From: Escherichia coli
Lineage (GTDB): Bacteria; Pseudomonadota; Gammaproteobacteria; Enterobacterales; Enterobacteriaceae
Reading direction: 5' to 3' (one strand)
Length of the DNA: 64,000 bases
Assembly (NCBI RefSeq): GCF_009931435.1
Contig: NZ_CP043414.1
Part shown: in pieces, positions 6,114-31,602 of the stretch
Layout: every line of letters starts with the position of its first letter
How positions within the stretch are numbered: the first letter of the stretch is position 1
Made by a program: the position numbers and the translations under genes
The notes under the pieces: generated by a model
Seen by the model: only the letters and a program-made list of their open reading frames with translations
Told to the model about the DNA's origin: nothing
The model's database searches: none

Positions 6114-7067
<954 letters not shown>

Positions 7068-7269: not shown

Positions 7270-7710
7270 ATGGACAAGCAACGCGGTTTTACACTTATCG
7301 AACTGATGGTGGTTATTGGCATCATTGCCATTTTAAGCGCCATTGGTATTCCCGCTTATCAAAACTACCTGCGCAAAGCCGCACTCACCGACATGCTACA
7401 AACCTTTGTGCCTTACCGTACCGCCGTAGAGTTGTGCGCGCTGGAACATGGTGGATTAGATACCTGCGACGGTGGCAGCAATGGCATTCCCTCGCCTACC
7501 ACCACCCGCTATGTTTCAGCCATGAGTGTGGCAAAGGGCGTGGTGTCGCTGACCGGGCAAGAAAGTCTCAATGGGCTAAGCGTCGTTATGACACCGGGTT
7601 GGGATAACGCAAACGGCGTCACCGGCTGGACGCGCAACTGCAATATTCAAAGTGACAGCGCATTGCAGCAAGCCTGCGAAGATGTCTTTCGCTTTGATGA
7701 CGCCAACTAA
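7270..7710 (+). CDS. ppdD: Type IV prepilin-like protein (prepilin peptidase-dependent protein D), 146 aa
   Basis: Track ORF; MDKQRGFTLIELMVVIGIIAILSAIGIPAYQNY... carries the class-III signal/N-methylation motif G-FTLIE. Confidence 0.95.
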   Translation: MDKQRGFTLIELMVVIGIIAILSAIGIPAYQNYLRKAALTDMLQTFVPYRTAVELCALEHGGLDTCDGGSNGIPSPTTTRYVSAMSVAKGVVSLTGQESLNGLSVVMTPGWDNANGVTGWTRNCNIQSDSALQQACEDVFRFDDAN

Positions 7711-7719
7711 GGAGCGGCA

Positions 7720-9117
7720 ATGAATATTCCACAGCTCACCGCCCTGTGTCTGCGTTATCAGGGAGTCTTGCTGGATGCCAGCGAAGAGGTGGTTCATGTT
7801 GCGGTGGTTGATGCCCCTTCGCATGAGCTACTGGACGCATTGCATTTCGCTACCACCAAACGTATTGAGATCACCTGCTGGACGCGCCAACAAATGGAAG
7901 GTCACGCCAGTCGCACCCAACAGACATTGCCCGTAGCTATTCATGAGAAGCATCAGCCCAAAGCAGAGTTGCTGACTCGAACGTTACAATCTGCGCTGGA
8001 ACAACGCGCGTCTGATATTCATATCGAACCAGCGGACAATGCCTACCGCATCCGCTTGCGTATCGACGGTGTATTGCATCCTTTACCGGATGTTTTACCG
8101 GATGTTTTACCGGATGCCGGAGTCGCATTAACCGCCAGATTAAAAGTGCTGGGCAACCTGGATATTGCGGAACATCGCCTGCCGCAGGACGGGCAATTCA
8201 CTGTCGAACTGGCAGGAAACGCCGTCTCATTTCGTATTGCGACCTTACCATGCCAGGGTGGTGAAAAGGTGGTATTAAGGTTGTTACAGCAGGTGAGCCA
8301 GGCACTGGATATCAACACGCTGGGGATGCAGCCGTTACAACTGGCGGACTTTGCTCATGCCTTGCAACAACCACAGGGACTGGTGCTGGTAACTGGCCCT
8401 ACAGGCAGCGGCAAAACGGTCACGCTTTATAGTGCCCTGCAAACGCTGAATACCGCTGACATTAATATTTGTAGCGTCGAAGATCCGGTTGAGATCCCCA
8501 TAGCCGGACTAAACCAGACGCAAATCCATCCGCGTGCCGGTCTTACCTTTCAGGGCGTTTTGCGTGCGTTATTGCGCCAGGACCCTGACGTCATCATGAT
8601 CGGAGAGATCCGCGATGGCGAAACAGCAGAGATCGCTATTAAAGCGGCGCAAACCGGTCACCTGGTGTTGTCTACCCTACACACCAATTCCACCACTGAA
8701 ACGCTGGTACGTTTACAGCAAATGGGAGTCGCCCGCTGGATGCTCTCATCGGCGCTTACGCTGGTAATAGCCCAGCGTCTGGTACGCAAACTTTGCCCGC
8801 ATTGTCGCCAGCAGCAAGGGGAGCCCATCCATATTCCAGACAATGTATGGCCGTCGCCGCTGCCCCGCTGGCAAGCACCCGGTTGTGTACATTGCTACCA
8901 CGGTTTTTATGGTCGCACGGCCTTATTTGAAGTTCTGCCCATAACACCGTTCATACGTCAGCTTATTTCCGCTAATACCGACGTTGAATCGCTGGAAACG
9001 CACGCCCGACAGGCGGGTATGCGAACGCTTTTTGAAAACGGCTGCCTGGCCGTGGAGCAAGGCTTAACCACCTTTGAAGAGTTAATCCGCGTATTGGGAA
9101 TGCCGTATGGCGAGTAA
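7720..9117 (+). CDS. hofB: Type IV pilus assembly ATPase (PilB/GspE family), 465 aa; contains in-frame 12-bp tandem duplication
   Basis: Track ORF; MNIPQLTALCLRYQGVLLDASEEVVHVAVVD..., Walker A GPTGSGKT present. 4 aa longer than the 461-aa K-12 HofB as I recall it. Confidence 0.93.
   Translation: MNIPQLTALCLRYQGVLLDASEEVVHVAVVDAPSHELLDALHFATTKRIEITCWTRQQMEGHASRTQQTLPVAIHEKHQPKAELLTRTLQSALEQRASDIHIEPADNAYRIRLRIDGVLHPLPDVLPDVLPDAGVALTARLKVLGNLDIAEHRLPQDGQFTVELAGNAVSFRIATLPCQGGEKVVLRLLQQVSQALDINTLGMQPLQLADFAHALQQPQGLVLVTGPTGSGKTVTLYSALQTLNTADINICSVEDPVEIPIAGLNQTQIHPRAGLTFQGVLRALLRQDPDVIMIGEIRDGETAEIAIKAAQTGHLVLSTLHTNSTTETLVRLQQMGVARWMLSSALTLVIAQRLVRKLCPHCRQQQGEPIHIPDNVWPSPLPRWQAPGCVHCYHGFYGRTALFEVLPITPFIRQLISANTDVESLETHARQAGMRTLFENGCLAVEQGLTTFEELIRVLGMPYGE
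8082..8116 (+). repeat. Tandem 12-bp repeat (CCGGATGTTTTA x2 plus partial third) inside hofB, encoding PDVL-PDVL-PDA
   Basis: Read directly: tttaCCGGATGTTTTACCGGATGTTTTACCGGATGCC; in frame with hofB. Confidence 0.9.
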
Positions 9118-10309
9118 GCAACTCTGGCGCTGGCGTGGCATAACCGGCGACGGCAATGCGCAAGATGGGATGCTATGGGCAGAGAGCCGTGCTTTGCTGC
9201 TCATAGCACTACAGCAACAGATGGTTACCCCACTTAGCCTGAAGCGAATCGCCATCAATTCTGCGCAGTGGCGAGGAGATAAAAGCGCGGAAGTCATTCA
9301 TCAACTGGCGACGCTACTCAAAGCCGGGTTAACGCTTTCTGAAGGGCTGGCACTGCTGGCGGAACAGCATCCCAGTAAGCAATGGCAAGCGTTGCTGCAA
9401 TCGCTGGCGCACGATCTCGAACAGGGCATTGCTTTTTCCAATGCCTTATTACCCTGGTCAGAGGTATTTCCGCCGCTCTATCAGGCAATGATCCGCACGG
9501 GGGAATTGACTGGTAAGTTAGATGAATGTTGCTTTGAACTTGCTCGACAGCAAAAAGCCCAACGTCAGTTAGCCGATAAAGTGAAATCAGCGTTGCGTTA
9601 TCCCATCATCATTTTAGCGATGGCAATCATGGTGGTTGTGGCAATGCTGCATTTTGTACTGCCGGAGTTTGCTGCTATCTACAAGACCTTTAACACCCCA
9701 TTACCGGCGCTAACGCAGGGGATCATGACGCTGGCAGACTTTAGTGGCGAATGGGGCTGGCTGCTGCTGTTGTTCGGCTTACTGCTGGCAATAGCCAATA
9801 AGTTGCTGGTGCGCCGCCCGACCTGGCTCATCGTGAGGCAAAAATCACTGTTACGCATCCCAATTATGGGTTCACTGATGCGAGGGCAAAAACTCACGCA
9901 GATCTTTACGATTCTGGCGCTGACACAAAGTGCAGGCATTACTTTTTTACAGGGCGTAGAGAGCGTCAGAGCAACAATGCGCTGTCAGTACTGGGAGCAA
10001 CTTCTGACACAAATCCAGCACGATATCAGTAACGGTCATCCTATCTGGCTGGCGCTAAAAAATGCCGGTGAGTTTAGCCCGCTCTGTTTGCAATTAGTGA
10101 GAACAGGAGAGGCATCCGGTTCGCTGGATCTCATGTTAGACAACCTCGCCCGTCATCATCGGGATAACACCATGGCGCTGGCGGATAACCTTGCAGCCTT
10201 GCTCGAACCGGTGTTGCTGGTCATAACGGGAGGAATTATCGGTACGCTAGTGGTGGCAATGTATTTGCCAATTTTCCATTTAGGCGATGCGATGAGTGGG
10301 ATGGGATAA
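9107..10309 (+). CDS. hofC: Type IV pilus inner-membrane platform protein (PilC/GspF family), 400 aa
   Basis: Track ORF; MASKQLWRWRGITGDGNAQDGMLWAESRALL...; overlaps hofB 3' end by 11 nt. Confidence 0.94.
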   Translation: MASKQLWRWRGITGDGNAQDGMLWAESRALLLIALQQQMVTPLSLKRIAINSAQWRGDKSAEVIHQLATLLKAGLTLSEGLALLAEQHPSKQWQALLQSLAHDLEQGIAFSNALLPWSEVFPPLYQAMIRTGELTGKLDECCFELARQQKAQRQLADKVKSALRYPIIILAMAIMVVVAMLHFVLPEFAAIYKTFNTPLPALTQGIMTLADFSGEWGWLLLLFGLLLAIANKLLVRRPTWLIVRQKSLLRIPIMGSLMRGQKLTQIFTILALTQSAGITFLQGVESVRATMRCQYWEQLLTQIQHDISNGHPIWLALKNAGEFSPLCLQLVRTGEASGSLDLMLDNLARHHRDNTMALADNLAALLEPVLLVITGGIIGTLVVAMYLPIFHLGDAMSGMG

Positions 10310-28766: not shown

Positions 28767-30118
28767 GTCCCATTCTCCTGTAAAGCGCGTACTACCTCTT
28801 CCATGGCAGCACTACGTGAACCCTTAACTAAAATCGTAATTACCTGTTGCTCAGCAATCAGTGATTTAAGACGTGTGATAAGCGCAGTTTTATCGGCAAA
28901 ATGTTCACCAACGCCGCTGGCGGTACTGATAGCATGGCTTTGTTTACCCACACTTAACACGCGGTCAATACCCGCCGCCTTCGCCGCTTCGCCCACCTGT
29001 ACATGGCAGGCCTCGCTTTCAGCGCCCAGTTCCGCCATATCGCCCACCACCAGCACACGGTAGCCCGGCATTTCAGCCAGTACCTGAACAGCGGCGGTCA
29101 TGGAGCCGACGTTAGCGTTGTAGGAGTCGTCGAGCAGCAACTGATTTTCCGCCAGTTGAATGGGGAACAGACGGCCAGGAACAGCTTTCAGATTTGCCAG
29201 CCCCGCTTTAATAGCATCAAGCGTTGCGCCCACGGACATGGAGAGCGCAGCGGCTGCCAGCGCATTCGCAATATTGTGACGCCCCGGCAACGGCAGCAGA
29301 ACATCGACGCTACCCGTTGGGGTTTGCAGCGTAAATTCCGTACCGTGCGAGGTCACGTGGATATTGGTGGCGGTGAAATCGCTGTTGTTAGCATTCGGTG
29401 AGAAGCGCCACACTTTGCGTGAGCCAATCACACTCTGCCAGTTCAGCCAGTCGTTGTTGTCGGCATTCATAATGGCGATACCGTTTTCCGGCAGGCCGCT
29501 AAAGATTTCACCTTTCGCTTTCGCGACACCCGCAAGCGAGCCAAAACCTTCCAGATGCGCCGCTGCCAGGTTGTTGACCAGCGCCGCTTCCGGGCGAGTC
29601 AGACTCACAGTCCAGGCAATTTCGCCCTGATGGTTCGCGCCAAGTTCAATTACTGCGTAATCGTACTCTGGCGTTAAGCGCAACAGCGTCATCGGTACAC
29701 CGATGTCGTTGTTGAGATTGCCTGCCGTATAAAGCGTGTTGCCACACTGGCTTAAAATCGCTGCCGTCATCTCTTTAACGGAGGTTTTGCCGGAGGAACC
29801 GGTCAGAGCAACCACGCGCGCCGGAACTTGCTGGCGAACCCATGCAGCCAGTTCACCAAACGCCAGACGAGTATCCTTGACGATTACCTGCGGCAGATCG
29901 ATATCCAGCGGACGGCTAACCAGTAGTGCCCCCGCACCGCCAGCTTTCGCCTGGTCAGCAAAATCATGGGCATCGAAACGTTCGCCTTTCAGGGCAACAA
30001 ACAGGCAACCCGGCGTCAGTTTTCGCGTGTCAGTGGTTACAGCATCAAGGGTGATATCTGCCCCTTTTAGTTCACCGTTGAGAATATCGGTAAGTTGGCT
30101 AAGGGTTACGCTAATCAT
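28760..30118 (-). CDS. murF: UDP-MurNAc-tripeptide--D-alanyl-D-alanine ligase, 452 aa
   Basis: Track ORF; [53 protein letters not shown]... Confidence 0.96.
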
Positions 30119-31602
30119 GCAATTACCCCCAGCAGACGCGCTACCGTGACGCGATCGGAATAGTCGAGACGCTGATTGCCAACAATCTGGTAATCTTCAT
30201 GGCCTTTGCCCGCGACCAGTACCACATCGTTCTCTTTAGCCTGCATAACGGCGCAAGTCACCGCTTCAGCGCGGCCTTCCATCACTTTGGCATGTCCGGC
30301 ATCTAACATTCCCGCCAGAATATCGTTGATGATGGCACGCGGCTCTTCGGTACGCGGGTTATCGTCCGTCACCACCGCCACGTCAGCAAACTCTTCAGCA
30401 ATTGCTCCCATCAGTGGACGCTTACCTTTATCGCGATCGCCACCACAGCCAAAGACGCACCACAGCTTGCCCGCACAGTGCAAACGCGCCGCCTGTAAGG
30501 CTTTTTCCAGTGCATCTGGCGTATGCGCGTAATCCACCACTACCGTCGGTTTGCCTGGCGCAGTGAACACTTCCATACGTCCACAAACCGGCTGCAGGCG
30601 TGCGGCAGTTTTCAGCAGGTCAGCCAACGGATAGCCCAGCGCCAGCAGCGTCGCCAGCGCCAGCAGCAAGTTGCTGACGTTAAAAGCGCCCATCAGATGG
30701 CTTTCAATTTCGCCATCGCCCCAGCTTGAGCTAAAGCGAATAGTCGCACCGCTGTCGTGATAGTTCACTTCAGTCGCTTTCAACCAGCGTCCGTGACAGT
30801 TCGGATTGATATGATCTTCCATTGATACCGCAACCGCGTCCGGCAGTTTTGCCAGCCAGCGGCGGCCCACTTCATCGTCGGCGTTAATAATCGCCTGACC
30901 GCAATGATGCTCAGAATAAAGCAGCCATTTCGCGGCTTCGTAGTGTTCCATATCACCATGATAATCAAGGTGATCGCGGCTTAAGTTGGTAAAGACCGAC
31001 GCCGCAAATTTCAATGCCGCCACACGGTGCTGTACCAGTCCGTGGGAGGAAACTTCCATTGCGCAAAAAGTCGCGCCCTGATCCACCAGTCCCGCCAGCT
31101 CATGCTGAACATCGACTGCCGAACCGGTGGTATTTTCTGTCGGGATCACTTTTCCCAGCAGGCCGTTACCAACAGTCCCCATTACCGCGCTGGTTTCGCC
31201 AAGCAGTTGGCTCCACTGCGCCAGCAGCTGGGTAGTCGTGGTTTTGCCGTTGGTGCCCGTTACGCCCACGAGACGTAAATTGTCAGAGGGTTCATGGTAA
31301 AAGCGGCCCGCCAGTGCAGATAAACGCTCATTGAGCTGGCTGAGATAGATGACTGGTACGCCGTGCATTTCACGGATTTCACCGTCGGTCGCCTCATCTT
31401 TCGCCTCTGCAATAATGGCAGCCACACCTTGCGCTATCGCCTGCGGGATATATCGACGCCCGTCCGCCTGATGACCTACTACAGCTACAAAGAGATCGCC
31501 CGCCGCAGCCACACGGCTGTCGAGTGTCATCTCTCGCAGTGCTCGCGAAGGTGCGTCTGGCACCCACGGAGCAAGAAGGTCGCGCAAATTACGATCTGCC
31601 AC
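30115..31602 (-). CDS. murE: UDP-MurNAc-L-Ala-D-Glu--meso-diaminopimelate ligase, 495 aa
   Basis: Track ORF; [55 protein letters not shown]... Confidence 0.96.

What the first reader, a model, noticed from the sequence alone, without database searches (positions are those of the whole stretch)
8082..8116. In-frame 12-bp tandem duplication in hofB
CCGGATGTTTTA occurs twice in tandem followed by a partial third copy, producing PLPDVLPDVLPDAG. The product is 465 aa, 4 longer than the 461-aa K-12 HofB as I recall. This is a slippage-prone microsatellite-like repeat inside the ATPase of the cryptic ppdD-hofBC type IV pilus operon and could be a strain marker or a copy-number-variable site.
Basis: partly seen in the sequence, partly recalled or inferred. 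Interest (0 to 1): 0.4.

Follow-up and report, generated by a model that had tools for sequence, protein, structure and literature searches.

The report
Extra 12-bp repeat unit in hofB
This E. coli carries one extra copy of a 12-base repeat inside the pilus-motor gene hofB, adding four amino acids to a surface loop; it is a real but ordinary slippage mutation that marks one recent clone.

Summary
Window 8082-8116 is a perfect 12-nt tandem array of 2.9 copies inside a 465-aa HofB ORF (7720-9117, + strand).

K-12 and nearly all E. coli carry 1.9 copies and a 461-aa protein.
- Among 5,426 complete E. coli genomes, none has the 2.9-copy allele.
- 5,412 have 1.9 copies. Only 97 match a probe carrying the perfect repeat exactly.
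- 7 have a contracted 0.9-copy allele (457 aa).

The window's exact 465-aa protein occurs on at least 24 contigs in public assemblies, so it is not an artefact. A draft genome matches the window over 19.1 kb except for 3 SNPs and lacks only these 12 nt, so the duplication is a recent event within one clone. A second, independent contraction sits on a pure K-12 background.

The four added residues fall in a loop of the N2 domain, between a beta-strand and a helix. In other Enterobacteriaceae this loop varies in sequence but not in length.

Best explanation: slipped-strand mispairing between adjacent direct repeats produced a rare, in-frame, lineage-marking indel. It is not a hypermutable or phase-variable locus. 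The functional effect is untested. Interest is low.

The parts
8082..8116 (+). It encodes L122-P-D-V-L-P-D-V-L-P-D132. One unit (12 nt, 4 aa) is extra relative to the 461-aa allele. Which copy is 'new' cannot be assigned.
   Evidence: TRF; sequence; alignment to K-12, Z0117EC0005 and the 457-aa allele; pattern extraction across loci.
7720..9117 (+). hofB CDS, 465 aa. It is a GspE/PilB-type type IV pilus extension ATPase. The reading frame is intact, with Walker A GPTGSGKT, Walker B DPDVIMIGEIRD, the His box GHLVLSTLHTN and the CPHC...CVHC tetracysteine motif.
   Evidence: ORF list; Pfam T2SSE E=5.7e-145; PDB PilB/GspE E about 1e-104; Foldseek top hit PilB 5tsh; dN/dS 0.127 against K-12.
7270..7710 (+). 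ppdD, a prepilin peptidase-dependent major pilin (146 aa). It is the first gene of the operon and is listed for context.
   Evidence: ORF; Pfam N_methyl and Pilin; RefSeq annotation of the orthologous loci.
9107..10309 (+). hofC, the platform protein of the GspF/PilC family (400 aa). Its start overlaps the end of hofB by 11 nt. Listed for context.
   Evidence: ORF; Pfam T2SSF; RefSeq annotation.

Best explanation
The feature is a one-unit expansion of a short in-frame tandem repeat in hofB, most likely produced by slipped-strand mispairing during replication.

Proposed history:
1. E. coli hofB ancestrally carries two adjacent near-identical 11-12-nt segments (TTTACCGGATGT TTCACCGGATG, encoding LPDVSPD). 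Outgroup species lack the repeat.
2. In a minority lineage a TCA>TTA (Ser>Leu) change made the repeat perfect over 23 nt.
3. On that background one clone gained a third unit, adding four residues (PDVL/LPDV). They lie in the loop between the DGVL beta-strand and the ALTARLK helix of the ATPase N2 domain.
4. The same site has also lost a unit at least twice, independently, in other backgrounds.

The change keeps the reading frame and all catalytic motifs. It cannot switch the gene on or off. It behaves as a rare, heritable, lineage-marking indel.

What is shown: the repeat, the allelic series, its rarity, its clonality, the existence of the parental allele, and the position in the secondary structure. 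What is inferred: the slippage mechanism and near-neutrality.
For: - The extra unit is an exact copy of its neighbour, with no additional bases at the junction.
- The parental state exists. L007 (GCA_030511265.1) equals the window over 19,117 nt with 3 mismatches and one 12-nt gap at the repeat. L008 has 1 mismatch plus the same gap over 9.3 kb.
- The parental protein is in the collection as P0138 / WP_302301024.1.
- The allele is reproducible. The exact 465-aa protein is on at least 24 contigs in 31 index blocks, from NCBI, ENA and Logan. L003 differs from the window by 2 SNPs in 7.4 kb and carries the three-unit array.
- It is rare. The 3-copy junction gave 0 hits in 5,426 complete genomes, against 5,412 for the 2-copy control.
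- Contractions exist. Seven complete genomes have a 457-aa allele, which is on 747 contigs in the large collection.
- An independent contraction has 0 mismatches to MG1655 over 4,386 nt but 29 mismatches to the STEC-like 457-aa allele.
- Outgroups (E. albertii, E. fergusonii, Citrobacter, Salmonella and others) have non-repeated sequence of the same loop length as the 461-aa allele.
- The AF2 model puts a strand at 118-121, a loop at 122-130 and a helix at 131-144.
- Alignment with PilB shows that K-12 has the family-typical loop length and the window has 4 residues more.
Against: - No mutation rate was measured, so slippage is inferred from the anatomy only.
- Loop length is invariant in 18 sampled orthologues (17 from other species of Enterobacteriaceae and one metagenome sequence identical to K-12 in this loop), while the loop sequence is highly variable across the other species. 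hofB is under purifying selection (dN/dS 0.13). The +4 and -4 changes may therefore not be neutral.
- The AF2 model is only moderately confident here (mean pLDDT 71, about 61 around the loop).
- The loop's position relative to the N2D-CTD packing interface or the nucleotide could not be computed with these tools.
Confidence: 0.85

Rival explanations
1. The loop-length variants (-4, 0, +4 residues) are selected. They would tune the HofB motor, for example through N2D-CTD packing or partner binding, in particular ecological lineages.
For: - Loop length is otherwise invariant across Enterobacteriaceae.
- hofB is under purifying selection.
- The -4 allele is carried by a successful, internationally distributed cattle- and human-associated lineage (747 contigs).
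- The +4 allele is found on more contigs than its exact parental allele (at least 24 against 2).
Against: - Each variant is confined to closely related genomes, as expected from hitch-hiking on clonal expansion.
- Opposite length changes are both tolerated.
- The loop sequence is the most variable part of the domain.
- No phenotype data exist.
Confidence: 0.08
2. The array is a hypermutable contingency locus or VNTR whose copy number changes frequently and modulates expression.
For: Three copy-number states and at least three independent events occur at one site. One of them is on a K-12 background with no other difference in 4.4 kb.
Against: - The unit is 12 nt, a multiple of 3, and lies inside the ORF, so no frameshift switch is possible.
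- There are only 1-3 copies.
- Only 7 of 5,426 complete genomes deviate.
- All 97 complete genomes that match the 41-nt perfect-repeat, 1.9-copy probe exactly have exactly 1.9 copies.
- A 3.9-copy allele is not in a 15-billion-protein collection.
Confidence: 0.04
3. The extra unit is a sequencing or assembly artefact, or was imported by recombination from a divergent allele.
For: No complete RefSeq genome shows it.
Against: - The identical protein comes from independent NCBI, ENA and Logan assemblies on at least 24 contigs, three of them longer than 1 Mb.
- The flanks are identical to the parental allele over 19 kb, so no foreign block is present.
Confidence: 0.02

Closest known systems
In-frame short tandem-repeat indels generated by slipped-strand mispairing (coding VNTR or minisatellite-like polymorphisms used as strain markers)
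   Same: - Head-to-tail exact copies.
- Gain and loss of whole units.
- A perfect direct repeat in the parental allele.
- Lineage-specific distribution.
   Different: - Very low copy number (1-3).
- Rare variation (about 0.1% of complete genomes).
- Not part of any E. coli typing scheme that I could find.
Simple-sequence contingency loci (phase-variable genes of Neisseria, Haemophilus and Campylobacter)
   Same: A repeat inside a surface-organelle gene cluster changes copy number by slippage.
   Different: The unit length is a multiple of three, so the frame is kept. There is no on/off switching and no evidence of a high rate.
PilB/GspE extension ATPases with solved structures (Geobacter PilB 5TSG/5TSH/6OLJ, Vibrio EpsE 1P9R, Thermus PilF 5OIU)
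   Same: - HofB aligns over residues 79-458 at E about 1e-104 and about 45% identity.
- It has the same N2D + CTD architecture and motifs.
- The K-12 loop has the same length as in PilB.
   Different: - The window allele has 4 extra residues in the N2D strand-to-helix loop. This is chain positions 242-253 of 6olj, about native 222-233 judging from the D398/E400 register.
- This is not one of the CTD 'pore loops' discussed for PilB (PMC5424180). Pore loop 1 (D398/E400) aligns to HofB D299/E301.

Membership tests
GspE/PilB-type (PilT-like) secretion/pilus ATPase | T2SSE domain covering N2D and CTD | tested here: met
   Pfam PF00437 E=5.7e-145, residues 76-457, profile positions 3-370 of 370. PDB PilB/GspE E about 1e-104. 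Foldseek top hits are PilB 5tsh and 5zfr, probability 1.00.
GspE/PilB-type (PilT-like) secretion/pilus ATPase | Walker A, atypical Walker B, Asp box, His box, and the tetracysteine motif typical of extension ATPases | tested here: met
   Read directly in the translation: GPTGSGKT, DPDVIMIGEIRD, GHLVLSTLHTN, CPHC...CVHC. These are aligned column for column with PilB.
GspE/PilB-type (PilT-like) secretion/pilus ATPase | Operon context with a pilin and a GspF/PilC platform protein | tested here: met
   ppdD (N_methyl, Pilin) lies upstream and hofC (T2SSF) downstream, with an 11-nt overlap. RefSeq annotation of the orthologous loci agrees.
GspE/PilB-type (PilT-like) secretion/pilus ATPase | ATP hydrolysis and pilus assembly activity of this 465-aa allele | not testable with these tools
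   Needs biochemistry or genetics.
Slipped-strand tandem duplication | The new copy is identical to the adjacent unit, the junction is clean, and a parental allele has a perfect direct repeat in an otherwise near-identical genome | tested here: met
   (sequences). L007 differs by 3 SNPs and one 12-nt gap over 19,117 nt.
Copy-number-variable tandem repeat (VNTR) | Different whole-unit copy numbers among strains, arising more than once | tested here: met
   0.9 copies, 1.9 copies and 2.9 copies (window, L003). There are two independent contractions, STEC-like and K-12 background.
Hypermutable contingency / phase-variable locus | Copy change shifts the frame or alters a promoter, giving on/off expression | tested here: not met
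   The unit is 12 nt and internal to the ORF. All three alleles give full-length ORFs of 457, 461 and 465 aa.
Hypermutable contingency / phase-variable locus | High frequency of variation among closely related isolates | tested here: not met
   0 of 5,426 complete genomes are expanded and 7 of 5,426 are contracted. All seven carry the identical contracted repeat region, and the three inspected encode the same protein accession. No direct rate was measured.

The most novel reading that the evidence does not exclude
The N2-domain loop of HofB is a recurrently hit length-polymorphic site (-4, 0, +4 residues). Its variants would alter the activity or partner coupling of the PpdD (HCP) pilus extension motor and would be selected in particular host-associated E. 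coli lineages. The -4 allele occurs in a cattle- and human-associated, STEC-like lineage, and the +4 allele in the window's clone.
Probability: 0.06. Interest if true: 0.4.

Novelty: new member of a known kind. Interest (0 to 1): 0.15.

Why it matters
The practical value is modest. The 12-nt gain is a clean presence/absence marker for one recent E. coli clone, and the matching 12-nt loss marks a widespread STEC-like lineage. Both can be scored with a single k-mer or a short PCR amplicon.

It is also a tidy natural example of how a point substitution that perfects a chance direct repeat precedes a slippage event.

It would matter more only if loop length in the N2 domain were shown to change the activity of the HofB motor, which nothing here demonstrates.

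Tried and rejected
- **Metagenome scans.** Two exact-pattern scans of JGI metagenome contigs both returned nothing, one for any allele with 3 or more copies and one for the common 2-copy allele as a control. Because the control also failed, the collection is uninformative for this locus and the negative result carries no weight.
- **Hypothetical variants.** Exact-protein look-ups found nothing for a 469-aa / 3.9-copy allele, for +4 on the K-12, Z0117EC0005 or P0004 backgrounds, or for -4 on the window or Z0117EC0005 backgrounds. This is weak evidence, because the look-up needs full-length identity.
- **Literature.** Searches for hofB/ppdD/hofC and for the hemorrhagic coli pilus found nothing about a hofB repeat or length polymorphism. 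They gave only general context: in EHEC O157:H7 the hemorrhagic coli pilus (HCP) is a type IV pilus (PMC2920817, abstract); that it is assembled by the ppdD-hofBC operon is my own knowledge, not checked here.
- **Structure.** The PilB structure paper (PMC5424180) describes CTD pore loops and the N2D-CTD packing unit, but not this N2D loop. I could not obtain coordinates, so I could not compute whether the loop touches the packing interface. The AF2 model has only moderate confidence (pLDDT 71), so I used it only for the order of secondary-structure elements.
- **Rejected readings.** Assembly artefact, recombinational import and phase variation are covered under the rival explanations.

Full report
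**1. The observation**

The sequence at 8082-8116 reads TTTACCGGATGT TTTACCGGATGT TTTACCGGATG. Tandem Repeats Finder returns exactly these coordinates: period 12, 2.9 copies, 100% matches, no indels, score 70.

It is the strongest tandem repeat in the whole 64-kb window. The run of self-matches at lag 12 is 23 nt. The longest run at any lag from 4 to 30 in 20 shuffles was 9-12 nt.

The ancestral two-unit state has an 11-nt run, so it is about what chance produces. The three-unit state is not.

The array lies in frame in the ORF 7720-9117 (+ strand, 465 aa) and encodes H120-P-L-P-D-V-L-P-D-V-L-P-D-A-G134.

**2. What the gene is**

- The ORF matches Pfam T2SSE over residues 76-457 (E=5.7e-145).
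- It matches solved PilB/GspE structures at E about 1e-104.
- Its AlphaFold model hits PilB 5tsh/5zfr first.
- Walker A, Walker B, the His box and the tetracysteine motif are intact.
- It is flanked by the pilin gene ppdD and the platform gene hofC, between nadC and guaC, as in K-12. RefSeq labels the gene gspE.
- hofB is not decaying. dN/dS against K-12 is 0.127, similar to hofC at 0.110.

**3. Comparison with other E. coli**

K-12 MG1655 hofB is 1,386 nt / 461 aa. It carries an imperfect 1.9-copy version, TTTACCGGATGT TTCACCGGATG (LPDVSPD).

The closest complete genome by hofB is Z0117EC0005. It is also 461 aa, but its 1.9-copy version is perfect (LPDVLPD).

hofB is present in 5,424 of 5,426 complete genomes. 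Every full-length match listed spans 1,386 nt in the record, against 1,398 nt in the query.

| Probe (41 nt, blastn word 11) | Complete genomes hit |
|---|---|
| 3-unit junction | 0 |
| 2-unit junction (control) | 5,412 (97 identical, 5,287 at 95-99% identity, 28 at 90-95%) |
| 1-unit junction | 7 |

The perfect repeat is therefore itself a minority state.

The seven 1-unit genomes come from human stool in the USA, cattle in Germany and bovine faeces in Japan. The three inspected are annotated with the same intact 457-aa protein, WP_032314426.1 (HPLPDAG).

**4. Is the window allele real, and how old is it?**

The exact 465-aa protein is in the 15-billion-protein collection (P0002). It carries several NCBI accessions and the name 'MULTISPECIES ... 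[Escherichia]'. It is encoded on at least 24 contigs in 31 index blocks, three of them longer than 1 Mb, always in the same gene context.

- L003 (GCA_036246705.1) differs from the window by 2 SNPs in 7.4 kb and has the three units.
- The hypothetical parent, the window protein minus one unit, also exists (P0138 / WP_302301024.1).
- Its locus L007 (GCA_030511265.1) equals the window over 19,117 nt with 3 mismatches and a single 12-nt gap at the repeat.
- L008 has 1 mismatch plus the same gap over 9.3 kb.

The duplication therefore happened very recently, inside one clone, on the perfect-repeat background.

**5. Recurrence**

The contracted allele also exists on a pure K-12 background. L009 and L010 (SRR34539953/4) have 0 mismatches to MG1655 over 4,386 nt apart from the 12-nt gap. 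They have 29 mismatches to the STEC-like 457-aa locus.

That makes at least three independent unit changes at this site: one gain and two losses.

No 3.9-copy allele, and no +4 allele on the other backgrounds tested, was found by exact look-up. Two metagenome scans were uninformative because the control also returned nothing.

**6. Origin of the repeat**

I aligned 18 further orthologue sequences: 17 from other species of Enterobacteriaceae and one metagenome sequence (P0068) that is identical to K-12 in this loop. The species include E. albertii, E. fergusonii, Citrobacter, Salmonella, Enterobacter, Kosakonia and others. All have the same loop length as K-12. Across the other species the loop sequence is highly variable, for example LPDITLDAGV, LQDIAKETGL and QPPLAAELAN. 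None of them repeats PD..PD.

The repeat is therefore an E. coli-specific accident of substitution, later perfected by TCA>TTA.

**7. Structural position**

In the AF2 model (mean pLDDT 71, about 61 around the loop) the order is strand 118-121, loop 122-130, helix 131-144.

Against Geobacter PilB, the window has 4 more residues than PilB between DGVL and the AITSRIK helix. K-12 has the PilB length.

The register of D398/E400, called 'pore loop 1' in PMC5424180, maps to HofB D299/E301 in the CTD. The insertion is therefore not in that pore loop. It is in the N2 domain.

Whether the loop touches the N2D-CTD packing interface could not be computed here.

**8. Interpretation**

The anatomy fits slipped-strand mispairing:
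- an exact neighbouring copy;
- a clean junction;
- a perfect direct repeat in the parent;
- gains and losses of whole units.

The unit is a multiple of three and the variants are rare and clonal. This is therefore a lineage-marking in-frame indel, not a contingency locus.

Functional neutrality is an inference. The strict conservation of loop length in orthologues leaves some room for an effect on the motor.

**9. Verdict**

The phenomenon is ordinary. I found no literature on it. It is an undescribed instance of a well-known kind of polymorphism.

Noticed in passing
L004-L006 (complete genomes 2014C-3061, OkiPb01680, 13E0780); L009/L010 (SRR34539953/4): A reciprocal 12-nt contraction of the same repeat gives a 457-aa HofB (HPLPDAG). 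It is present in 7 of 5,426 complete genomes and on 747 contigs in the large collection. It also occurs independently on a background identical to K-12 MG1655.
   Followed up: yes
proteins P0016, P0018, P0029 (527-576 aa) and P0059, P0073, P0074 (596-702 aa): Some E. coli assemblies carry predicted ppdD-hofB fusions (N_methyl + T2SSE) or hofB-hofC fusions (T2SSE + T2SSF). These presumably arise from stop-loss or frameshift changes at the tightly spaced or overlapping gene junctions, or from sequencing errors.
   Followed up: no
cluster 1: The 90%-identity cluster that holds HofB (15,911 members) also contains many 400-aa HofC proteins. It was probably chained together through hofB-hofC fusion proteins, so cluster size overstates the number of HofB sequences.
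   Followed up: no
window 30637-30667 (- strand ORF 30115-31602, MurE-like by my reading of the translation): There is an imperfect 9-nt tandem repeat, CAGCGCCAG, of 3.4 copies at 72% matches, with a 14-nt self-match run at lag 18. It is the only other short-period signal above shuffle level in the window.
   Followed up: no
window 9107-9117: The hofC start codon overlaps the end of hofB by 11 nt, as in K-12. This suggests translational coupling. The repeat change does not affect it.
   Followed up: partly
window 1-24000: The best complete-genome match over 24 kb is only 99.1% (MFDS1019527, cattle), and only 8 records reach 99% or more. The window's lineage is therefore not represented among the RefSeq complete genomes searched, although near-identical draft assemblies exist (GCA_036246705.1, GCA_030511265.1).
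   Followed up: partly
window 6132-7067: The mechanical ORF for nadC is 311 aa, starting at an upstream ATG. Relatives are annotated with a 297-aa NadC, which corresponds to the internal start MPPRRYN. This is a start-codon ambiguity only.
   Followed up: no
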